Shown: piece after piece, positions 17,191 to 50,127 of the stretch
Numbering within the stretch: the stretch's first letter is position 1
Layout: the number at the start of each line of letters is the position of its first letter
Origin: a virus
IMG/VR virus record: IMGVR_UViG_3300035498_000744
Location: 64,001 to 114,142 of that record
Direction: 5' to 3' (one strand)
Length of the DNA: 50,142 bases
Made by a program: the position numbers and the translations under genes
The notes under the pieces: model-generated
Database searches by the model: none
Told to the model about the DNA's origin: nothing
What the model saw: the letters and a program-made list of their open reading frames with translations, nothing else

Positions 17191-18027
17191 TTAATAAATG
17201 CTATTGAGCAAATTCATTAGCCCTACATATTCTTTCCATGTTATATCTGTATCATTGGCGGTCACTTTGTAGCTATTAAAATCAGAAACTGAAAACTCAC
17301 TATTATCAGCCATGTCTGCTAATGCAGCAACTACTTTATTAACATGATCAGCTTCTATATAATCGCCTGATTTTACAATCGTAAAACTATAGTCGGATAA
17401 CCCGCAATATTCTCTAAATTCGTTTATTCTATCGCAAAAATTATTCCATTCAAGAGCAGTAAGAGTAATTTCATGCTCGCTTGACATCTCATCCAAAGTG
17501 TCCCATTCCCAATCCTCTGGTCTATTTGTAGTTTCACAAGTAATCCCTTCGTCCATAAAGGGACCCAACTTTTCGGCTTCGTAGTTTGTAGCATTGACTC
17601 CACAATAATTCACCACATAAGCTGTTCCTGGCTCTAGCCCAGTAATGGTATAATTTCTAACTCTGGCATAGGATAAACAATTAGATAAAGCAGAATAATC
17701 ACTAGGTATATAAGTCGCCGTAGACTCAGAACTTTTTCTATAAGCTATGATATATCTAGTAGCTTTACTAATAGAAGCACAAGAAATGGTAATAAAATCT
17801 CTCCCGCAATTAGTTACTTCTATTTCTCCCGATTCTGTAACCCTATTTTTATAAGGGTCTTCTTCTTCCTTCTCTCCACTAGAAGAGCTTTCTCCAGAAC
17901 TACTCCCGCCACTAGAAGAAGAATTTCCTCCACTAGAGCTAGAACCAGGTTTTGTTATGCTACCACCAGATCCTGATGTGCCACTATCATCAGCAAGAGC
18001 AAAAAACCATAAATCAAATAAAGACAT
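17191..18027 (-). CDS. Structural protein with a long Gly/Ser-rich linker
   Basis: Complete ORF-track gene, RBS GTGAGGTAA then ATG, TAA stop. Confidence 0.55.
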   Translation of the reverse strand: MSLFDLWFFALADDSGTSGSGGSITKPGSSSSGGNSSSSGGSSSGESSSSGEKEEEDPYKNRVTESGEIEVTNCGRDFITISCASISKATRYIIAYRKSSESTATYIPSDYSALSNCLSYARVRNYTITGLEPGTAYVVNYCGVNATNYEAEKLGPFMDEGITCETTNRPEDWEWDTLDEMSSEHEITLTALEWNNFCDRINEFREYCGLSDYSFTIVKSGDYIEADHVNKVVAALADMADNSEFSVSDFNSYKVTANDTDITWKEYVGLMNLLNSIY

Positions 18028-18035
18028 ACTTTACC

Positions 18036-30918: not shown

Positions 30919-31500
30919 TTAACCGTTTTTAACCACATCTAGTACCTTACCCATAGCTTTAGTAGCATCATCGCTCTTTATTTTATCCAAGATATTGTTT
31001 AACTGTTCATCAAGATTTTCGGCGCTATCAGACATATTATTGATAATACCAGCAGCAGATGAATTATAGCGAGATATATCTGCTATTGTATCTTCCACAA
31101 GATCTTCCATAAAATCAATCTCATCTTGAGGTATTGCATTTCTAATTAAGTCTACAACGCCATTCATCTCAAGAGCATCATAAACATGACTAACATCTTC
31201 CATATTAATGTCAATACCTCCATACCATTGGCAAATAGCAAGAGCAAAGTAAACATTAACGCGTAGAGGACTAAAACAACCAGTCGTTTGATCTAGTGCA
31301 TTATTGATTACGAAATCAAGAACAGCTTCTTTTTCTTTAATAGGTAAGTATTTACGGACTTCGAGAATCAACGTGTCGTTAATCTTAACTTGTTGAGTAA
31401 TCTCTTCGGTGGGTAGTTGCAGATCTTCAAAAGAACTCATATTATTAACCTCCTTCATCTTATTTATTATATCAAATTTTTTCTGTTTAATCAAAATCAT
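30919..31500 (-). CDS. Acidic tail-assembly chaperone (gpG-like)
   Basis: Position is between the tail-tube region and the tape-measure gene. Acidic composition. Alternative start at ATG 31440 has a strong AAGGAGGT RBS. The 31500 start is ATGA-coupled to the upstream gene. Confidence 0.5.
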   Translation of the reverse strand: MILIKQKKFDIINKMKEVNNMSSFEDLQLPTEEITQQVKINDTLILEVRKYLPIKEKEAVLDFVINNALDQTTGCFSPLRVNVYFALAICQWYGGIDINMEDVSHVYDALEMNGVVDLIRNAIPQDEIDFMEDLVEDTIADISRYNSSAAGIINNMSDSAENLDEQLNNILDKIKSDDATKAMGKVLDVVKNG

Positions 31501-32952
31501 TTTGCAAGTTCATATAGATTTCTTCCATTTAGTTTAACTGTCAAGTATAGATTAGTTACCGCTTCTTGTCTTACCTTATCACTTCGAGTAAACGCCATAA
31601 CCGCATCCCTCTTCCTATACGTTGTCGATTTCTTCTCGCCTGAAGCATCTATCCAGTCATTATGAAAATTAAATTTTGTTGAAACATATTTATTTATAGC
31701 TTCTGGATTCGCTTCAAAAATATTAGATACTTGATTTAGGATAGAAATAATTGGAATCGGACGCCCGCTAACTACCAAACAATCTGCAATATCAAATGTC
31801 CCGCTCTTCCCTAATTTTGTTCCACCGCCGGCAAGAAACTAATCAAAATATTTAGCGATAACTCCCCTCGAAATCATCCTGTACTCCCCAGAATTAGAAT
31901 TCGCCCATACAAGCGTATTTAAGGCAGCATTGTCCATTGGAATTCGAGGAGAATCAAAGACTGATTGGACTAAATTCCATGCCTTTACCGTATCAAATAT
32001 CTTAATTCCATCAAATGAGTTTTTGTTGTTTTTGTCATATTTCCAATTACCAGACGAGTCTACCACACTAGCAGAGGCTTTTAAACTTAAACCCTACTAT
32101 ACTACAAATTCATTATCATTTATTTTTACAGTATATTCTATCACAGTATCTGGTTTGGCCATAGTAGAAATAGTCTAATTAGCAATTTGCTACGGAGTTT
32201 CAGCGCCAGTTGAAATCACCTTTACGTTTTTAATATTTGAAAACTACTTGCTCACAGCCATTGCCGCTTTTGTTGCCATAAAATTCGTAGTAGCCTCATT
32301 CAAAAAACCTAGCTACGAGGCAAAGCGCTACTGAGCAGGGTACGGTTTTATAGTTGGATCATTTTTAATCTTGTCCACAATAGATTGCAACTTCTAAAAT
32401 TGCTACTCGGCCTTTTCCATATTGACTTTTAGTCCCTCGATCATTTCAGGACTTTCTAATGCTAAAAAATTAATTTTATCTTCGCTAGAAAGAGAAGTAT
32501 ACTATTGTCTTAACTTATTCACTTCTTGTTCTATATTATTAATAGCCTAGGTTCTTTTATCGCTATTAAGTTGCCAGCATAATCCTGATATTTTTTTTAA
32601 TGCAGTCGCTACAGAATCTCCTCCAAATTCATTCTATATAGATAAATTATTTACAATATAATTAACCCATTCTTCTTGCTCTTTGGTATAATATTCACCC
32701 GTAATAAGATTTCTTAACTCGGAGTCTAATATTGACTATCGTCTCTCAGTATATCTATTTAAGATATTTTTTCCATAGTCATTTATAACATCCTGTTTCT
32801 AGAAGATAAGATCCGTAGTTAAAGATTTGATTTTTTCATATCCTTCTTTGGTACCTCTAACATATACAATTCTATTTATGCCATAAGTAGGCGGTGCCTA
32901 GACTGATTTCATTGTTTCCGCATTTTTCCTGAAGGCTATCCCGGCCATTCTT
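31497..32952 (-). CDS. Tail structural protein (about 484 aa; many TAG)
   Basis: RBS GGAGGGG then ATG 32952. Hand translation joins with ORF-track pieces 31839..32066 and 31497..31778. Ends TGA. Confidence 0.45.
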
Positions 32953-42711: not shown

Positions 42712-42773
42712 TTGTAACCACCCCCTTCTTTATTATATCTTAAAAAAGTCTAGGTTTAATTATCTAGTTTTGT

Positions 42774-45704
42774 CATCCGAGGAACATAAAATCTGAGAAG
42801 TTATGCTTGCGGCGCTTGCGCTTATTGTCTTCATTTTCTCGGATATAGTAGATTGCATAAAGCAAAGAAGAAAATTTATCATGCCCAATATTCCTATTAG
42901 CAGGTTTTAATTTGATATTAATCCCCTCATTCTCCTCGCGGAGGTTGAGCATTTCTTCTTTGAGTATGTCTGTTAGCTGATAGGGAATAAGATACTCTGC
43001 TCTCTATTCAGGGGTCATAGATTGCCCCATTTTCTTACCCATTAGTTTTGCTTTTGCTACCCGCTCAGATATCAAAAACTTAATTTTCCCAGACTCAATC
43101 TAACTTTGAAGCGTTGAATAAGCAGTAGAATCAATGGGAGCATTAGCTTTAATGACATAAATAGCGTCATCTTCTGTATCATTTGTACGAAATCGCTTAT
43201 ACTCCTAATCTGCATCTGTATAAGTTCCGCCTATCACCCCAAATGGAGGATAAACATCTCCTTCTTCTGTTATTTGACGTTTAACCATATAGTCCATAAG
43301 ACCAATCCCTACAATACCTTCCACATAGCTCGCTATTTCTATGTGCGTTCTTTTATGAACTGCTTATAGTTTCCCATAAGTTGAGACTATCTCTTTCTCT
43401 CAATGAGAGATCTTCCATTTCGACCACCAATCGCTTGCGGCCTACGTCTTTCGACTAGTCGTTGAACCTTTTCTTTCATCAATAGAAAAGAACTTGGCTG
43501 CGGATTAGCTTGCTTATTAAAGTTTAGCTTTCCCGCAATTAAAAAGATTTGCATCATGCAGTCGCCTACATGAGGGGCTATTTTATTAACCCGTTTCCAT
43601 CTATGACTAAACGTCTTGCCTTATAACGATAATATAACTTTTTAAGCTTGATAGCTTGTTCTTCAAAATGTAGTTCATTTTCCGCAAAAACATAAAGATT
43701 AACTAAAGTCTTTATAGAACTACCATCTAATTGCGGAGTTACCTTGATTATTGTTGCCACTGACTAACAATCTTTACGTCCTACGTCTACACCTATTACA
43801 TAATAAGCTTGGCTTGAAGACCGACCTGAATATTCATATTCGGGTTGATTAAGTATTCTGTTCCGGTCAAATTTCTCGCCATTAAAGAATGCTCCATCTA
43901 CCGTTCCAGTCCACTTGCTTGACATTTATCTTTAAAACTATTCGCAACATAGTTTCCCTTTCGGCTCCACATTTCTGTAGAGATGAGACTATATCATACA
44001 TTATTATTCTACGTATTTCTTAATAATAATGTTTTTGTGCTTCGATTTAAGGGAATTTCACCCACCCCATTAGCTTGGGCCCTACTCCTATTGAACTTAC
44101 GTCCCAAAGGGATAGTCGTTGAACCTTCTTGTTATTTTAACAAGCTTGGCTGCCGATTGTCCAATCCTAAATAATTTTACCATCCATGTGCTATTACGCA
44201 CACTGCTACGCCAAAAAGCTGCGGTTATTTAGGCTCTAAGGAGTTTCCGGCAATTCACAAAATTTATAGAGTACACAAGTTTTATACTCTCTTTCAAAGC
44301 CAGCTTCATTAAACGTAGGATCTCGCTTTAAGTCATTTAAAAAATTCTTTCCCAGCATCCCCATCAAGACTGGAACTCTATAAGTTCCGCCCATAATAAA
44401 GGCTTTACCAGGTTCTGTAACCATCTACACTAGTGTTTGAATCAACTTCTAGTAGCTAAAAGTATTCTTATAGCCAGCCGTTGTAATGTAAAGCTAAGAC
44501 TGGTTTAATACCTCGTCTTCCTAGACTGTCCCATCTAAACACTAGCGTGAAACATTCATCATCAAGAGAAAAGAAACTCTTGGACTATCTCATCAACTAC
44601 TGCCGAAAATAGTTGCTGCGCGCTTCGGACAGCGACAAACTCTGCTCTACTGGGTTACACTCATCACCCTTAGTCTCTACACCTTCCTTTTTTAAGGCTT
44701 GGCACGGGATTCTCTATATTCCCCGTTAGCTTGAATCGCTAGATTCAAACACCCTTTTGTCACAGGTTCACGCAGTTATTCACTTGTAACTCACGCTACA
44801 AGGCCCCAATGTTGTTCAGGGATTAAAACTTCTTGCAAGATCTATTGGTCTACGCCAACGCATTCCTCTATGAGCCCAGCATGTTTACGCCGTCCTCTCG
44901 AGCTTTCACGCGCCGCTATATTCTCAAAATCCGACCCATTCTTAAATACATATCGACAATGGTCTTTGCCTTCTGCGGTTCCTGACCCTCGTGTCCAATT
45001 GATCTCTCTTTTAAATGCGGGAATCTTTTCACAAATATCCTTAACCTTCTCTTGCAGTATCTATGCAGCTTGCTCCTTGCCTCCAGCCGTCGAGAATACG
45101 TGCGCTCCTGGATAGAGTATACAACGTATCACCTAGACTAATACGGAAAGGAAACTTTTTGAGTATGCCATTTGCTTTCTATTTAGTTCGCTACGCTAAA
45201 TACGTTCTCTTATGAACTGCTGTATGTCACCATACAGATAAGACTATATCTTCACCCTCGGCTTTACGTTAGGGGCCTACTTTTTCGGATACCAATCGCT
45301 TATATCCTACTCCCTCTCAGGATAGTCGTTGAACCTTTTCTTCCATCAATAGAGAAAGAACTTGGCTGCTGATTGTCTTGGTCAAGATGTCCCAGCAATT
45401 AAATAGGTCCTTCATTAATGTTTCCATCAATGCACGCTATACTCTAACGTGGATACACGGCATATACATACTTATATCTAGCTGCCACGCGCAGGAAAAC
45501 ACGCTAATAAAAGAAGAGATGGAAGGTTAATTCCTTTTCTGGGTCTCCGCCTGTCTACATAAAATCTACAAATAAATCTGGATACTCTCGCCAGAAAGCA
45601 ATATATTGCCTCATTATAGGTTTAACTGCTTCTAGCCTTTCTTTTGAGATTCCTACTTTTCTGGTAGCAATAGAAGAGGAATCTATTAATGATTCTAAGC
45701 TCAT
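42774..45704 (-). CDS. terL: Terminase large subunit, interrupted by about 4 self-splicing-intron-like elements. Exons roughly 45704-45470, 45170-44781, 44466-44194, 43928-43578, 43360-42774
   Basis: Exon 1 starts at an ATG overlapping the upstream stop (ATGA) after RBS AAGAGGAGG. Exon segments align in order with T4 gp17-type ATPase and nuclease motifs by recall: YQR, PRQS then KS, NGS, EEC, GVDVG, GIGLMDY. Exon boundaries are approximate. TGA at 42774-42776. Confidence 0.55.
43361..43577 (-). ncRNA. Group I intron-like element in terL
   Basis: On the minus strand, in 5' to 3' order: P-like AATTGCGGGAAAG, Q-like AATCCGCAGCCAAG, R-like GTTCAACGACTAG, S-like GAGATAGTCTC. These are consensus elements recalled from memory. 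Begins at the in-frame TAA of exon 4. Confidence 0.5.
43929..44193 (-). ncRNA. Group I intron-like element in terL
   Basis: Q-like AATCGGCAGCCAAG, R-like GTTCAACGACTATCC, S-like GATATAGTCTC. Confidence 0.45.
44467..44780 (-). ncRNA. Structured intervening sequence in terL (intron of uncertain class)
   Basis: Exon 2 ends TGA at 44781 and coding resumes near 44466. Contains a perfect hairpin (TTGAATCGCTAGATTCAA), a GCTAACGGGGAA / AATCCCGTG element repeated near 46950-46990, and an S-like GAGATAGTCC. Confidence 0.3.
45171..45470 (-). ncRNA. Group I intron-like element splitting the terL Walker-A region
   Basis: P-like AATTGCTGGGACA, Q-like AATCAGCAGCCAAG, R-like GTTCAACGACTATCC, S-like AAGATATAGTCT. 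Confidence 0.5.
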
Positions 45705-46126
45705 GATTCATCCTCCTCTTTTTCTTGGTCTACAAATTCATTAAACTCAACAAAGTCCGCATCTTTTATTGGTGAAGAGCTATAGTTAAATAGCCTCTCT
45801 TCTGCGGCATTATTAACATCTTCCTCGGAAATTTTAGCGGCGTCCGCAATAGCTTCTTTTTCTTGCTCTATTGCTTTAAGACTATTTTCAATAAGATTAT
45901 TAAGACCAACTTCTTCGGTTACTAAATCATGAGTATAATTTTGCATATCTTGAATAACTCTATCTACTTTATCTTGTGGTTTATCTACATAATATCTTGG
46001 AATAAAACCATCTCGTTCGCACAAGGCTACTATTTCTCCAATGGAATCTATATAATCACCTTGTTCTTCCTTGATCTAAGCAGCAGTGCATATTACTCCA
46101 TTGTTTCCAATGGCATTGACTATCTT
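45701..46126 (-). CDS. Acidic protein directly upstream of terL (about 141 aa open frame with no canonical start); terS candidate or a 3' exon
   Basis: ORF-track 45701..46024 extends upstream through one TAG to TAA at 46127. Its TGA overlaps the terL ATG. The first ATG/GTG/TTG is an internal TTG at 46024. Confidence 0.35.
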
Positions 46127-46258
46127 TTACTTTCACACTAAGCGAAAGGAAACCATTTCAGTTTTCAGAGGCTTCGTTTCCTAAAACCTCACTACGTACC
46201 AATAGTAGCCTTACTTCCCTGCCCAGAAGGCCTAGGGAATAGTCGATACAGATTCAAA

Positions 46259-46900
46259 TTAAATATATTTAACTATATAGCCGTGATAAGGTTTGCCTTG
46301 AAGAATATATTTTTTTAGAGTATCGGTACTTCCATTCGGGCTTAATCCAACGAAAACTTTAAAATCACGTTGTGTTTCAAATTCCCGAATAAAATTTCCA
46401 TTCAAATCATAAATAGCTACTCCTTTTGCAGTAGGAGCTTTTCCCCCTTGCTTAGCTTCGCTCATTTTCTTTTTAGATTCTTCATTATGGTGTCGTCCCC
46501 ACCAAGGATGCTCCTCTTTGCAAAAATGTTTGCCATAAAAATAATTCTTTTCTCCCTTAGCAGCTTCCGAAAGCTTTCTTTTTCGCTCTGCTTGAGCTTC
46601 CTCGCTCATACCAGCACAAGGATTACTGTTGAATCCACCTTCGGCTATATTATAAAAATTCTCGTTAGCAACAGCATCATAAGCTTGAATCCATTTTCTT
46701 TCAGCAATGTTCATGCTTTCATAATCTTGGCATATCTCAAGTATCTCTTTCTTAAAATTCTCTTTACCATATTTGGAAACAGCTTTCTTAAGCAAGCTTC
46801 CACTTCCAATATAGCTATCATCAATTTCTCCATGATGCTGGCCTATATATTGCTTGCCATCAATGAGGTTAGTAGTTAAATAAATGTAATACTGCTTCAT
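46259..46900 (-). CDS. GIY-YIG homing endonuclease (I-TevI/Seg-like)
   Basis: N-terminus KQYYIYLTTNLIDGKQYIGQH is a GIY-YIG motif. RBS AAAGGAG then ATG 46900 (the track's TTG 46909 is less likely). Basic C-terminal DNA-binding region. Standard-code ORF. Confidence 0.7.
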   Translation of the reverse strand: MKQYYIYLTTNLIDGKQYIGQHHGEIDDSYIGSGSLLKKAVSKYGKENFKKEILEICQDYESMNIAERKWIQAYDAVANENFYNIAEGGFNSNPCAGMSEEAQAERKRKLSEAAKGEKNYFYGKHFCKEEHPWWGRHHNEESKKKMSEAKQGGKAPTAKGVAIYDLNGNFIREFETQRDFKVFVGLSPNGSTDTLKKYILQGKPYHGYIVKYI

Positions 46901-46990
46901 ACTACACAAACTCCTTTAAATATATTTAATAAGTTTTCCACGGGATTACCATGCCACTAAACGTGGTTTAGGCTTCCCCGTTAGCTCGTT

Positions 46991-47716
46991 TTAAGAAACG
47001 AACCCCAGTGGTAACTGGTAAAGTTTTTCACGGTCCACTATTTCGAACCTGCCGCTTTTCATCAACGTATCATACGCTTTAGACATTTTTTGGAAGCTAT
47101 CAATATCCCCAGCATCGAGCAACTAATTTGCTTTAAGACTTGTTTTACAAATCATAATAAGTGTGTCTTTATGCCCAGCAGTCTATATATCATAAGACTG
47201 CATAAAATCTCGATACAGTTGTTCTAACTTTACCCACTCTTCTGGGCGATAGCCTCTCCCCCATTTAAGCCTAAGCATGAGTCTATCTTCTTCAGTTAAC
47301 TGTTCTGAAAACTCATCTTCTACCCATTCTGGGTCTTCATATTCGGGAACTTCTGCCGCCTCTACTTCAATTATAGGTTTTTGCGGCGTTCGGTCTATAG
47401 AGAGCCTTTCCTAGACTTCTTCATCTCTCAATCCACTAGCTTTCATTGCTTCAATGGTTCTTTGTCGAGACTCTTCCTCGATTTTTTCCGAATCGGCCCA
47501 TGTATATCTATTCCATTGCCGCAGTTTCATCTTAGAAAGATATCTGCCTAAAATAGTTACTCCACTAACCTTTGTAGGGTCTTTTCCATATTTTTCCAGA
47601 AGGGAATCCCATTCCTCTTTGATATAGGGGACATCAACCTCTTCCAAAATCCACTTATAGGTTTCTGGATCCCAGTTATCTACGTGCATAGTTATACATT
47701 TCTTGCAAGTAGTCAT
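46991..47716 (-). CDS. Hypothetical packaging-region protein (241 aa; terminase small-subunit candidate)
   Basis: ORF-track 47411..47716 continues through one TAG to TAA at 46991-46993. A mid-point stop I first called turned out to be an indexing error. Confidence 0.4.
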
Positions 47717-47811
47717 TACGCCATCAGGAGGATATCTATCTAACCTTTTAGATTTATAGAACTAATTTTCCTCCATGGTTTTACCGCATTTCTAACAATA
47801 ATGCTATGCCA

Positions 47812-48873
47812 TTACGCACCTCTTTTCTTATTTCGGCAATGCTTACATATACTATACAAGCCATCCTTGCTCATACCATTTCTAGAAAAGAATTGCGCAT
47901 GGGCGGGTTTTAATTCTCCGCACTTGGTACATCGTTTCATTGGATAGTTATTAGTCTTATATTCCCATGTTAAGAAGTCCTCAGTAGCGGTTTCCGCAAT
48001 TATCTTAGGAATTTTATTCCGCCATAAGGCCGACAAGTATTCTACAGTATAAGTGGTACCAAATTCATCTTTCAAAAGGTCTCGAATCTCACTATTTTGC
48101 TTTTTATCTATTTTTAGCTCTACTATACGTTGATAAATAGGATATTCCTTTAGCGCTTTATCACAAGTTTCCTCAAACGCCTAAAGCAAGTACCACATAT
48201 CTCCGCTGAATTGATCATAGCTGTCTTCTTTAAGTTTAGAATAGTTACATAAGATTGCTGATACGACTCTAGAATCCATAAGAGAAATACCACTTACCAT
48301 GACCTTAGGCCCTTCGGCAGTCTTTTCTAAATGAGAAGTATCATCAAGAGGTAAAAGATTCTATCCCCCTCTCGTTATTTTACACAAAGATATCGGTCGT
48401 TGATAAGCTTGCTTTATAAGATATTGGTCTTTTCGCATTTCGATTAAAGCTTTCTTTATAGTATAAGCCTACCTTGTTCCATTCGCACGTTTTAAAGCTT
48501 TTTCCCAGTCATTAATTGCTTCCCGCAATTGCCGCAAAGAAGGTATTGTGTCTAAATCATGCTAGGTAATGGAAATCTTTGGCTAAAGTAACGCATTTTT
48601 ATTTTCTACTATTAGGCTATAAATGCCATCTTCGCCATTTTCCATCTACGCTGCAAGCCCTTCAAAGGAATACTCTCTCTTATTAACTGTAGCCAATCTA
48701 TTTTCGGTTAAAATCTTCTTTTCTTTCTTCTCTTGTTTTTCCATACAAAGAATTAAATAATCTGCTAATGTCTCTAAATAAGCTGGAGTAATATCAGGGG
48801 TTTCCGCAATTATTTTTTCGACTAAGGCTTTACGTTCTTCTGGAGACTCGATAGTATAATCTAATTTGGTCAC
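47812..48873 (-). CDS. Protein with C-terminal HNH/zinc-ribbon-like motif (about 353 aa), first gene of the minus-strand operon
   Basis: RBS AAAGGAG then a GTG start. ORF-track 48646..48873 and 47812..48075 share a frame, joined by a TAG-only hand translation. C-terminus CTKCGELKPAHAQFFSRN...CKHCRNKK. Confidence 0.45.
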
Positions 48874-48890
48874 TTCTTCATCTCCTTTAC

Positions 48891-48926
48891 TCTATATATA
48901 ATAACAAAAAAAACTTAGATTGTCAA
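48891..48926 (-). promoter_or_regulatory. Sigma-A-like promoter for the minus-strand operon (TTGACA, 17 nt, TATATA)
   Basis: Read on the minus strand: TTGACAATCTAAGTTTTTTTTGTTATATA, about 25 nt upstream of the RBS. Confidence 0.45.
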
Positions 48927-48980
48927 TATCATTCCCTTCTATTTATATTTGATAAAAAACTCTATAAATAAATAATTAAA

Positions 48981-49042: not shown

Positions 49043-49357
49043 ATGTCTTTTTTTAGTAAGTCTCCTTGCCTTTTACCTGAAGGAGCTAAATATTTTTTTA
49101 ATATACTCGTGATAAACATTGGAATAAATTATGATAATTTAAGCGAGTTTTTTAATAATGGAAGTTGTAGTGCATGGTATTTAGACGCAATTAATAATCC
49201 TCGGCCATATGTAATTCATTTTTTCGCAAGTTCAACGCCTTACGATTGGGAATTAATAGGATACCCTCATTGTGTTATAGAAATAACCCCAGAGCAGAAA
49301 ATTTCTTTTTATGAGATGCTAGATTTTGGGACTAGCGATCCATGGAGGATAGATTAA
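49043..49357 (+). CDS. Hypothetical protein (104 aa)
   Basis: Complete standard-code ORF, TAA stop, overlaps the folD start. Confidence 0.5.
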   Translation: MSFFSKSPCLLPEGAKYFFNILVINIGINYDNLSEFFNNGSCSAWYLDAINNPRPYVIHFFASSTPYDWELIGYPHCVIEITPEQKISFYEMLDFGTSDPWRID

Positions 49358-50127
49358 TGGAACTTTTAAATATTAAAGAATATGTAAAACAAGAGAAAGA
49401 GAAACTGCGGGCGGCCGCTCCAAAGCGCATTAAACTGGGAATCATTGATGCCACAGAGCAAGGTGATTCCGCAAATCATTTATACATAAAAAATAAATGC
49501 AAAGATTTCGCCGAGATAGGTTGGGATTGCGAGATTTATCCAGTTACTGAAAATTCAGTGAAGCCAGCGATTAATCGAGCTATTGTTGGAGACTGCACTT
49601 CTATTATAGTCCAGTTGCCTACGAGAAAAGGAATAGATTTCCGGCCAGATATGATTCCTTCTTCTCTTGATTGTGATGGTGTGACAATGGGGTCTTTAGT
49701 AATTCCAGCTACTCCGAAGGGAATTGTTGATTATTTGAGGGCTTGCGGATTTCCATTTTCTAGAAAAACGGCAGTTGTTCTAGGTAGAAGTGATATTGTA
49801 GGCAAGCCTTTGGCAAAGCAACTGGCTGATCTTGATATGACAGTATCTTTATGCCATTCAAAGACAAGGTTAGAAGATAGAGTTTACTTGCTGAAAAATG
49901 CGGATTTAGTAATTTGCGCTATTGGCAAGGCTAAAAACGTGAAGCGAAGCGAATGCCCGCAAGCAGTTGTAGTAGATGTAGGAATTAATAGGGATGAGAA
50001 CGGCAAGCTTTGTGGCGATTTTGAAGAGGATGGAGGTCTTTCTACTCCTGTTCCAGGAGGGGTTGGTTTGCTAACTCGCTTAGCGTTAATGAAAAATTGC
50101 TATGTTTTGGGGAAAACATTAGAATAA
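49357..50127 (+). CDS. folD: Bifunctional methylene-THF dehydrogenase / methenyl-THF cyclohydrolase (FolD)
   Basis: FolD signatures: GRSxIVGKPL, CHSKT, VVDVGINR, GDF..., VPGGVGLLTRLALMKN. Start at the second ATG (MELLNIK...). No in-frame TAG in 257 codons. Confidence 0.8.
   Translation: MELLNIKEYVKQEKEKLRAAAPKRIKLGIIDATEQGDSANHLYIKNKCKDFAEIGWDCEIYPVTENSVKPAINRAIVGDCTSIIVQLPTRKGIDFRPDMIPSSLDCDGVTMGSLVIPATPKGIVDYLRACGFPFSRKTAVVLGRSDIVGKPLAKQLADLDMTVSLCHSKTRLEDRVYLLKNADLVICAIGKAKNVKRSECPQAVVVDVGINRDENGKLCGDFEEDGGLSTPVPGGVGLLTRLALMKNCYVLGKTLE

What the first reader, a model, noticed from the sequence alone, without database searches (positions are those of the whole stretch)
46127..47041. GIY-YIG homing endonuclease between two packaging ORFs, possibly intron-borne
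A standard-code GIY-YIG gene sits between a 241-aa upstream ORF and a 141-aa open frame that has no canonical start codon and abuts terL. The flanks contain structured motifs (GCTAACGGGGAA...AATCCCGTG at about 46950-46990, and a CGACTATTCC R-like motif at about 46240), one of which also occurs in the atypical terL intron. Either this is a free-standing homing endonuclease inserted between genes, as in the T4 seg/mob loci, or it is an intron-encoded endonuclease splitting a terS-like gene.
Basis: inference. Interest (0 to 1): 0.55.

Follow-up and report, generated by a model that had tools for sequence, protein, structure and literature searches.

The report
Endonuclease-carrying group I intron splitting phage gene
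The GIY-YIG gene sits inside a 957-base self-splicing-type (group I) intron that cuts one conserved phage packaging-module gene in two, which is an ordinary kind of mobile element at an insertion site I did not find described.

Summary
The intron-borne alternative is right and the free-standing alternative is wrong.

- **One split gene.** The two ORFs flanking the GIY-YIG gene are halves of one gene, a YonG-like protein (Pfam PF27269 YonG_N) just upstream of terL. About 8,000 homologues were found. The 120 listed are 381-403 aa, and the nine aligned read straight through the junction (...MKSGKF|TAAQNK...).
- **The intron.** It spans window 47045..46089 on the minus strand (957 nt). It has a U·G 5' splice site, a terminal G and an internal guide sequence that covaries with the exon. 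Helices P3-P9 are supported by covariation, including P7.1/P7.2 of subgroup IA and a T4-td-like P4-P6 core.
- **The endonuclease ORF.** It runs 46900..46259 and loops out of P6a. It matches TIGR01453 "group I intron endonuclease" above cut-off.
- **Independent support.** The same intron at the same site occurs with the ORF (L001, L002) and without it (L091, L174). A covariance model built without the window hits 46086-46254 at 105 bits.
- **Rfam.** RF00028 misses this subclass.
- **Limits.** Splicing and homing were not tested. The terS assignment rests on gene position only.

It is a new member of a known kind, of modest interest.

The parts
47046..47812 (-). Exon 1 of the YonG-like (PF27269) gene. 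ATG at 47812; last exon base is U47046 (codon phase 2, ...AGG UU|).
   Evidence: The homologues aligned are colinear up to ...LMKSG(K/R)F. Translated with TAG=Gln.
46089..47045 (-). Group I intron, 957 nt, from C47045 to the terminal guanosine G46089.
   Evidence: Removing it restores ...KSGRF|TAAQIKEE... in frame. P1/P10 are; core helices are.
45701..46088 (-). Exon 2 of the YonG-like gene (C46088 to the TGA at 45703-45701, which overlaps the terL ATG).
46259..46900 (-). GIY-YIG homing endonuclease ORF (213 aa plus TAA) in the loop of P6a.
   Evidence: Pfam GIY-YIG, SegE_GIY-YIG and NUMOD3; TIGR01453 at 71.5 bits; PHROG 314.
46911..46917 (-). AAAGGAG Shine-Dalgarno-like motif, with 10 nt between it and the endonuclease ATG.
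   Evidence: Read from the sequence. The same motif survives in the ORF-less copy L174.
47032..47049 (-). P1 hairpin. Exon GGUU (47049-47046) pairs with the guide sequence GACC (47035-47032), with U47046·G47035 at the splice site. UAGUG (47040-47036) can pair with exon 2 CACUG (46088-46084) as P10.
   Evidence: Exon and guide covary across copies (GGUU/GACC, ACUU/GAGU, AGUU/GACU).
47020..47026 (-). P3, 5' strand (AAACUUU).
   Evidence: Cognate versus non-cognate duplex test over 54 distinct strand pairs, p = 6e-11.
46150..46157 (-). P3, 3' strand (AAuGGUUU), directly before P8.
47005..47018 (-). Hairpin between P3 and J3/4, labelled here P3.1 (CCAGU/ACUGG). Loop ACC (47012-47010) pairs with GGU (46200-46198) in the P7.2 loop.
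   Evidence: The loop-loop pairs covary: AU 63/GC 8, CG 20/UA 45, CG 57/UA 7.
46984..47003 (-). Second hairpin, labelled here P3.2 (GUUCGUUU/AAACGAGC), abutting J3/4 UAA (46983-46981).
   Evidence: Four or more standard pair types at each of several positions.
46941..46980 (-). P4 (CGGGG/UCCCG) enclosing P5. P5 carries a motif resembling the 11-nt GAAA-tetraloop receptor (CCUAAA...CAUGG).
   Evidence: P5 covaries. P4 is invariant because it was used as the search pattern. The receptor reading comes from my own knowledge.
46916..46939 (-). P6 5' strand (GGA, 46939-46937) and P6a 5' strand (46930-46916).
   Evidence: The third P6 pair is A-U, G-C, C-G or U-A and is standard in 76 of 76 sequences. 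P6a is a perfect 15-bp inverted repeat (I3).
46250..46272 (-). P6a 3' strand (46272-46258, overlapping the last endonuclease codons and the stop) and P6 3' strand (UCU, 46252-46250).
   Evidence: By eye, P6a is AAAUAUAUUC/GAAUAUAUUU in L001 and CAACAU/AUGUUG in L002.
46240..46246 (-). P7 5' strand (R element, U-c-GACUA with C46245 unpaired).
   Evidence: The outer pair is UA 53, GC 11, AU 10, CG 1; the other five pairs are invariant.
46160..46239 (-). P7.1 (46239-46215) and P7.2 (46211-46160). P7.2 contains an extra hairpin, P7.2a (46190-46168).
   Evidence: Helices 2-4: all 11 pairs show compensatory changes. P7.2a is present in only a subset of the family.
46117..46148 (-). P8 (46148-46130), J8/7, and the P7 3' strand (S element, UAGUCA, 46122-46117).
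46098..46113 (-). P9 hairpin with a GAAA loop; it is followed by AGUAAUAUG, ending in G46089.
   Evidence: all six pairs show compensatory changes.

Best explanation
Window 47045..46089 (minus strand) is a mobile group I intron of subgroup IA. It interrupts a single YonG-like gene of the packaging module between the second and third bases of a conserved Phe codon (...MKSGRF|TAAQ...).

**Inferred mechanism (standard group I chemistry).**
1. The pre-mRNA folds into P1-P9.
2. An exogenous guanosine bound in P7 attacks after U47046, which is held in a U·G pair by the internal guide sequence.
3. The freed exon 1 then attacks after the terminal G46089. This joins the exons and restores a 384-aa protein.

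**The endonuclease (inferred).** The 213-aa GIY-YIG endonuclease is looped out of P6a and has its own ribosome-binding site. It would cut intron-less alleles in co-infecting relatives, so that repair copies the intron in (homing).

**Shown here:** gene continuity in homologues; splice-site and guide-sequence geometry; a ribozyme core supported by covariation; endonuclease family membership; copies at the same site with and without the ORF.

**Inferred, not shown:** actual splicing, endonuclease activity and homing.
For: 1. **Gene continuity.** 7,983 homologues were found. The best 120 are 381-403 aa and most cover 96-100% of the spliced query. The nine aligned read ...LMKSGKF-TAAQNK... with no insertion, and the window's 34 extra columns are unmatched. 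The intron-less DNA in L199 reads GGAAAATT|CACAGCAGCTCAG, against GGCAGGTT|CACTGCTGCTTAG in the window.
2. **Splice sites.** There is a U before the 5' splice site in a U·G pair, a G before the 3' splice site, and a 5-bp P10. The exon part of P1 covaries with the guide sequence in five copies at this site.
3. **Independent detection.** A covariance model of P7-P9, built from 58 other contigs without the window, hits 46086-46254(-) full length at 105.4 bits, E = 1.4e-23. It also hits the three Rfam-positive terL introns at 1e-7 to 3e-4.
4. **Covariation, 3' half.** On 75 sequences, 96.3% of cells pair and 24 of 29 pairs show compensatory changes. The covariation score is 0.70, against 0.19 when shuffled and about 0.1 when slid.
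5. **Covariation, other helices.** P3, P3.2, P5 and P6 covary. The unconstrained minimum-energy fold of the ORF-deleted intron recovers 57 of the 70 proposed pairs.
6. **Orthologous copies.** The same intron sits at the same codon in L001 and L002, with endonucleases 73% and 70% identical. It also sits there ORF-less in L091, L174 and L195. L174 keeps the AAAGGAG motif and the ORF tail.
7. **Endonuclease family.** The ORF matches TIGR01453 'group I intron endonuclease' above its cut-off.
Against: - Rfam RF00028 does not reach its gathering score here. The only hit is a 15.4-bit partial match at 46097-46195. It also misses the ORF-less orthologues at E <= 0.01.
- The order of helices is unusual: two hairpins lie between the P3 5' strand and J3/4.
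- The exon-1 reading frame runs 18 codons into the intron, so ribosomes could disturb folding.
- There are no RNA data, so splicing is inferred.
- The alignment used was fitted to the model's structure, which favours that structure.
- The family was gathered with a pattern taken from the window. P4 conservation is therefore circular.
Confidence: 0.92

Rival explanations
1. The GIY-YIG gene is a free-standing homing endonuclease (like the T4 seg/mob genes) inserted between two independent genes.
For: The GIY-YIG domain also scores on the SegE_GIY-YIG profile. The ORF has its own Shine-Dalgarno-like motif. Both flanks are open in the same frame.
Against: The two flanks are halves of one protein in the homologues aligned. 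The downstream frame has no start. The flanks of the ORF fold into a group I core supported by covariation. ORF-less copies of the same flanks occupy the same codon.
Confidence: 0.02
2. The intron is a decayed, non-splicing relic, and the YonG-like gene is a pseudogene or is expressed only as a truncated exon-1 product.
For: Rfam does not recognise it. Splicing is untested. The exon-1 frame ends at a TAA 18 codons into the intron.
Against: Every core helix, the unpaired base and G-C pair of P7, the terminal G and the guide sequence are intact. The window scores about as well as other family members on the independent model: 105 bits, within a range of 67-127. Both exons keep the family's invariant residues. 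The endonuclease ORF is full length.
Confidence: 0.05
3. The intron and the endonuclease gene are two separate mobile units. The ORF invaded, and can leave, an already resident ORF-less intron, so the endonuclease may not be the agent that placed the intron at this site.
For: ORF-less copies sit at the same site (L091, L174, L195). L174 looks like a clean ORF loss. Near-identical intron cores (85% identity) occur in a DnaB-like helicase gene, and a family member lies next to a GIY-YIG ORF whose N-terminal part is only 31% identical, in Enterococcus phage EF1.
Against: This does not conflict with the main explanation; it refines the element's history. The endonucleases of the three ORF-bearing copies at this site are 70-73% identical, which suggests they travelled with the intron.
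Confidence: 0.3

Closest known systems
Phage T4 td intron with I-TevI (group IA2 intron; GIY-YIG endonuclease in the P6 region)
   Same: A phage protein-coding gene is split by a group IA intron with P7.1/P7.2. The GIY-YIG ORF with its own ribosome-binding site loops out of the P6a region. From my memory of the td sequence (not checked here), the P4-P6 core is almost the same: ...AACGGGGAA...AAUCCCGUG....
   Different: The host gene is YonG-like rather than thymidylate synthase. Two extra hairpins lie between P3 and J3/4, and there is no P2 between P1 and P3. The endonuclease has no detectable sequence match to any solved structure. The phage reads TAG as Gln.
Bacillus thuringiensis nrdF group IA intron with I-BthII (PMC2248736)
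   Same: A group IA intron with P6a, P7.1 and P7.2 whose GIY-YIG ORF starts in the P6a loop. An ORF-deleted variant exists in a sister strain.
   Different: It is bacterial and chromosomal, in a ribonucleotide reductase gene, and its splicing was shown by RT-PCR. Here nothing was tested experimentally.
Introns in phage terminase and other conserved genes, as reviewed in PMC3984707
   Same: The review lists terminases, DNA polymerases and ribonucleotide reductases as typical phage targets for intron homing. This window also has four group I introns in terL.
   Different: The target here is the gene upstream of terL. My one literature search on this turned up no paper that, by title or abstract, reports an intron in a small-terminase or YonG-like gene.
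phAss-1 / 'Phassvirus' group of TAG-to-Gln gut siphoviruses and Enterococcus phage EF1 (PMC10607447)
   Same: Phage Phass-1 and EF1 encode homologues of the YonG-like protein (36-38% identity). TAG is read as Gln in virion genes. EF1 carries a member of this intron family.
   Different: The relationship is only distant. That paper does not mention introns at all (0 occurrences).

Membership tests
Group I intron | P1 formed by the exon end and an internal guide sequence, with U·G at the 5' splice site | tested here: met
   GGUU/GACC with U47046·G47035. The pairing covaries in five copies at this site.
Group I intron | Terminal guanosine at the 3' splice site, and P10 | tested here: met
   G46089 precedes exon 2. 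P10 has 5 consecutive pairs in the window and 2-3 in the orthologues.
Group I intron | Conserved core P3-P8 with the P3/P7 pseudoknot and a P7 guanosine site (unpaired base next to a G-C pair; R and S elements) | tested here: met
   P7, P7.1, P7.2, P8 and P9: 96.3% of cells pair and 24 of 29 pairs are compensatory. P3: p = 6e-11. P4-P6. R is UCGACUA and S is AGAUAGUCA.
Group I intron | Score at or above the Rfam RF00028 gathering threshold (50 bits) | tested here: not met
   Only a 15.4-bit partial hit. The ORF-less orthologues L091 and L174 are also missed at E <= 0.01. Two things probably explain this: the 640-nt ORF in P6a, and the hairpins between P3 and J3/4, which the model cannot place. 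The three terL introns score 86-98 bits and share the 3'-half architecture.
Group I intron | Precise excision restores the host reading frame | tested here: met
   Joining the exons gives ...KSGRF-TAAQIKEE..., colinear with the homologues aligned.
Group I intron | Guanosine-dependent self-splicing | not testable with these tools
   Needs in vitro transcription and splicing, or RNA-seq.
Subgroup IA | P7.1 and P7.2 between P7 and the P3 3' strand | tested here: met
   Both helices are present, and all 11 of their pairs show compensatory changes.
GIY-YIG homing endonuclease (I-TevI-like, TIGR01453) | N-terminal GIY-YIG catalytic domain plus NUMOD DNA-binding modules, scoring above the curated cut-offs | tested here: met
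   GIY-YIG 24.0 (cut-off 22.6), SegE_GIY-YIG 29.8 (25), NUMOD3 46.9 (20.4). TIGR01453 71.5 (56.05), covering profile positions 4-210 of 215.
GIY-YIG homing endonuclease (I-TevI-like, TIGR01453) | Catalytic Arg, Glu and Asn residues intact; site-specific cleavage of the intron-less allele | not tested
   By eye, the ERKWI and YNIAEGG motifs look like the Glu and Asn positions of I-TevI. The Arg was not located. There is no sequence match to a solved structure.
Free-standing homing endonuclease (T4 seg/mob type) | Located between complete, independent genes and not inside an intron | tested here: not met
   The flanks are one gene, and the ORF lies in P6a of a ribozyme.
Small terminase (terS) | Recognisable terS family profile or fold | tested here: inconclusive
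   The family is PF27269 YonG_N. PHROG 3314, the best PHROG match, has unknown function. No Pfam hit reached its cut-off and NCBIfam found no family. There is no PDB sequence hit. An AF2 model of homologue P0001 has pLDDT 69 and no fold match with E <= 0.001. Only the position upstream of terL, and the annotation in a few Bacillus phage records, suggest terS.

The most novel reading that the evidence does not exclude
The intron belongs to a large class (more than 118 IMG/VR contigs) that combines three features:
- a td-like P4-P6 core;
- two hairpins placed between the P3 5' strand and J3/4;
- a covarying loop-loop contact between the first of these hairpins and the P7.2 loop.

If this architecture has not been described, it is a distinct structural subtype of group IA introns. 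Rfam-based annotation would miss it systematically, so many 'split' or 'fragmented' genes in gut and Firmicutes phages, including cultured Enterococcus phage EF1, would really be intron-interrupted.
Probability: 0.25. Interest if true: 0.45.

Novelty: new member of a known kind. Interest (0 to 1): 0.3.

Why it matters
- **Annotation.** The YonG-like gene and terL of this phage can be read correctly only after removing five introns and reading TAG as Gln. A standard pipeline would report a string of fragments plus an 'intergenic' endonuclease.
- **Detection gap.** RF00028 fails on this intron subclass, even on ORF-less copies. This subclass is therefore likely to go unannotated wherever annotation relies on RF00028.
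- **Biology.** Production of a full-length YonG-like protein, and of terL, depends on RNA splicing.
- **A ready-made comparison.** Copies at this one site with the ORF, without it, and with a fresh ORF deletion give a compact example of the gain-and-loss cycle of homing endonuclease genes.
- **Overall.** None of this is a new principle.

Tried and rejected
- **Rfam, gathering and E-value modes.** No usable hit on the element or on its ORF-less orthologues. This was informative only as a negative.
- **A first splice-site guess.** From the sequence alone I placed the 5' splice site at 47002/47001 and the 3' splice site at 46096/46095. That guess was in frame and had a plausible hairpin. I abandoned it when the protein alignment put the junction at F|T. 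The hairpin turned out to be P3.2.
- **A canonical P3 next to J3/4.** No partner exists for one. Covariation placed the P3 5' strand upstream of the two hairpins.
- **Nucleotide search of deposited phages.** Only an 81-nt match to the P7 to P7.2 region in Enterococcus phage EF1 and shorter matches in the Lak phages; no close relative.
- **Promoter scan.** Nothing above chance upstream of the endonuclease.
- **PDB sequence searches for both proteins.** No match.
- **Structure prediction of the spliced window protein.** A homologue was modelled instead, with moderate confidence and no fold match, so terS could not be tested.
- **MAFFT alignment of the 5' halves.** The P3.1 strands were offset between rows, so I did not build a second model or run a formal pair count on it.
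- **'Standard-code endonuclease' as a meaningful feature.** Weakened. Zero TAG in 215 codons has P of about 0.02 at the local TAG rate, but the orthologous endonucleases carry 3 and 5 TAG codons.

Full report
**Setting.** All genes around the finding lie on the minus strand, and the phage reads TAG as a sense codon. Allowing TAG raises minus-strand open frames of at least 100 codons from 18.5 kb to 43.2 kb; recoding TGA or TAA does not do this. TAG aligns with Gln in orthologous proteins. ARAGORN finds no tRNA in the window.

**The observation.**
- A 213-aa ORF runs 46900..46259 on the minus strand. It matches Pfam GIY-YIG, SegE_GIY-YIG and NUMOD3 above their cut-offs. It also matches PHROG 314 'homing endonuclease' and NCBIfam TIGR01453 'group I intron endonuclease' at 71.5 bits against a cut-off of 56.05, over nearly the whole profile.
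- Upstream is an open frame ending at a TAA at 46991. Downstream is a 142-codon frame (46126..45701) with no credible start. Its stop overlaps the terL ATG.
- The quoted motifs are at the stated places, and ATCCCGTG recurs in one terL intron.
The upstream gene starts at 47812, not 47716. The element spans 46089-47045.

**One gene, not two.**
- I searched a fusion of the two flanking frames against the protein collection. It returned 7,983 homologues. The best 120 are 381-403 aa, and most cover 96-100% of the query.
- In the alignment, all nine homologues read ...YDSLMKSGKF-TAAQNKEE... without a break. The window has 34 extra columns there: the read-through tail of exon 1 and the head of the downstream frame.
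- The family is Pfam PF27269, YonG_N.
- An intron-less relative (L199) reads GGAAAATT|CACAGCAGCTCAG where the window, once the insert is removed, reads GGCAGGTT|CACTGCTGCTTAG.
- The insert therefore lies between the second and third bases of an invariant Phe codon, in one of the most conserved blocks of the protein.

**Splice sites.**
- The last exon base is U47046 and the last insert base is G46089.
- Exon GGUU pairs with GACC (47035-47032), giving the U·G wobble at the splice site.
- The five bases just 5' of that guide (UAGUG) can pair with the first five bases of exon 2 as P10.
- In four other copies at this site the exon bases differ (ACUU, AGUU) and the guide changes to match (GAGU, GACU).

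**The same intron elsewhere.**
- A scan of IMG/VR with the endonuclease found two contigs (L001, L002) with endonucleases 73% and 70% identical. Both sit in the same YonG-like gene at the same codon.
- A scan with the core pattern GCTAACGGGGAAG...TAATCCCGTGG found at least 118 contigs.
- Among these, L091 and L174/L195 carry an ORF-less intron at this very codon.
- L174 still has the AAAGGAG motif and the last few bases of the ORF, so it looks like a clean ORF deletion.
- Close relatives of the intron core occur in other genes. One is a DnaB-like helicase (L108).
- Another lies next to a GIY-YIG ORF in the DNA polymerase III alpha region of cultured Enterococcus phage EF1. That record annotates the ORF only as a 'hypothetical protein'.

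**RNA structure.**
- I cut out the P6a/ORF loop and aligned 76 distinct family members.
- Mutual information and per-pair counts support P3.2, P5, P6, P7, P7.1, P7.2 and P9. The third P6 pair takes four standard pair types and is standard in 76 of 76 sequences. The outer P7 pair is U-A, A-U or G-C.
- The same analysis supports a loop-loop contact between the first hairpin after P3 and the P7.2 loop.
- P3 was hard to find. Its 3' strand lies just before P8, as expected. Its 5' strand lies upstream of two hairpins rather than next to J3/4.
- Over 54 distinct strand pairs, cognate duplexes are more stable than non-cognate ones: mean -5.4 against -3.0 kcal/mol, Mann-Whitney p = 6e-11. Clear swaps include AAACAUCU/AGAUGUUU, CACACC/GGGUGUG and GCUCCUUU/AGAGGAGU.
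- 'P3.1' is named in the literature as an optional group I pairing. I did not verify that the name refers to this position.
- P6a in the window is a perfect 15-bp stem that encloses the ORF and overlaps its stop codon.
- The unconstrained minimum-energy fold of the ORF-deleted intron recovers 57 of the 70 proposed nested pairs.

**Formal test.**
- I built a covariance model of the 3' half (P7, P7.1, P7.2, P8, P9) from 58 contigs, excluding the window.
- It hits window 46086-46254(-) end to end at 105.4 bits, E = 1.4e-23.
- It also hits the 3' halves of the three Rfam-positive terL introns at 1e-7 to 3e-4. This ties the family to accepted group I introns.
- On the 75-sequence model-based alignment, 96.3% of cells pair and 24 of 29 pairs show compensatory changes. 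The covariation score is 0.70, against 0.19 when shuffled and about 0.1 when slid. That alignment was fitted to the structure, which favours it. RNAalifold on the plain MAFFT alignment independently recovered P7, P7.1 and P7.2.

**Why Rfam is silent.** RF00028 gives only a 15-bit partial hit here. It misses the ORF-less orthologues as well. So the long ORF is not the only cause. The different placement of helices around P3 probably also defeats the model.

**The endonuclease and the code.** The ORF has no TAG; about four would be expected, P about 0.02. The orthologues in L001 and L002 have 3 and 5 TAG codons, at positions where the window has CAA or CAG. 'Standard-code' is therefore not a conserved property of this endonuclease.

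**Host gene identity.**
- The gene is YonG_N family. It lies immediately upstream of terL. A few Bacillus phage records call it small terminase, and most call it hypothetical.
- Profile, solved-structure sequence and fold searches gave nothing decisive. 'terS-like' remains a positional guess.
- The nearest described phages are the TAG-recoded phAss-1 group and Enterococcus phage EF1. The paper on that group does not mention introns.

**Verdict.**
- This is a mobile group IA intron carrying a GIY-YIG homing endonuclease in P6a. That is the same kind of element as T4 td/I-TevI and the B. thuringiensis nrdF/I-BthII intron.
- It sits at an insertion site I did not find described, in a TAG-recoded phage whose adjacent terL has four more introns.
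- Splicing and homing are inferred, not shown.
- It is a new member of a known kind. The only mildly novel aspects are the helix arrangement around P3 and the blind spot in Rfam.

Noticed in passing
window 42773-45707 (minus strand): terL is cut into five exons by four ORF-less group I introns. Three pass Rfam's threshold (45220-45456, 43965-44293, 43363-43597; 86-98 bits). The fourth, at 44577-44835, scores only 24 bits. Together with the YonG-like intron, that makes five introns in 5 kb of the packaging module.
   Followed up: partly
window 8000-49000 (minus strand): TAG is read as a sense codon (Gln) throughout the structural module, at about 1.8% of codons. No tRNA gene of any kind, and so no suppressor tRNA, lies in the window.
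   Followed up: partly
window 46259-46900: The endonuclease ORF has no TAG codon, while its orthologues in L001 and L002 have 3 and 5. Two other ORFs in the window (30919-31509, 17191-18030) also lack TAG.
   Followed up: yes
window 46168-46190 and 46988-47005: An extra hairpin inside P7.2 has a conserved loop (UUUUAGGAAACGAAG) and a covarying stem. It is present in only a subset of the intron family. In the window, its region is 89% complementary over 18 nt to the P3.2 region, a possible alternative pairing.
   Followed up: no
L174 7700-8950, L195; L008, L013, L016; L159, L173: The YonG-like gene is interrupted at other positions in relatives. One intron with a TAG-containing HNH ORF lies after ...IDIGD. 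GIY-YIG-bearing inserts lie near residues 231-233. Another break lies between residues 137 and 165.
   Followed up: partly
L200 (Enterococcus phage EF1, MF001358.1, 128748-133828): A member of this intron family (102 bits on model R1) follows a GIY-YIG ORF annotated as 'hypothetical protein', in the DNA polymerase III alpha region of a cultured phage. A second, weaker hit (56 bits) follows the ORF annotated 'HNH homing endonuclease # Phage intron'.
   Followed up: partly
L108 2199-3250: An intron core 85% identical to the window's, also carrying a GIY-YIG ORF and the extra P7.2a hairpin, interrupts a DnaB-like helicase gene. This suggests the intron has moved between genes.
   Followed up: no
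L091 381-669, L174 8927-9267: Rfam RF00028 does not detect these ORF-less, apparently intact introns even at E <= 0.01.
   Followed up: yes
window 49342-50127 (plus strand): A 261-aa standard-code ORF on the opposite strand looks, by eye, like a FolD-type methylenetetrahydrofolate dehydrogenase/cyclohydrolase. This was not tested.
   Followed up: no
window 47812-48942 (minus strand): The gene upstream of the YonG-like gene ends in a CxxC...CxxC motif (KRCTKCGELK...SICKHCRNKK) that resembles the N-terminal zinc-ribbon-like motif of the YonG-like protein. The same arrangement is seen in L001 and L002.
   Followed up: no
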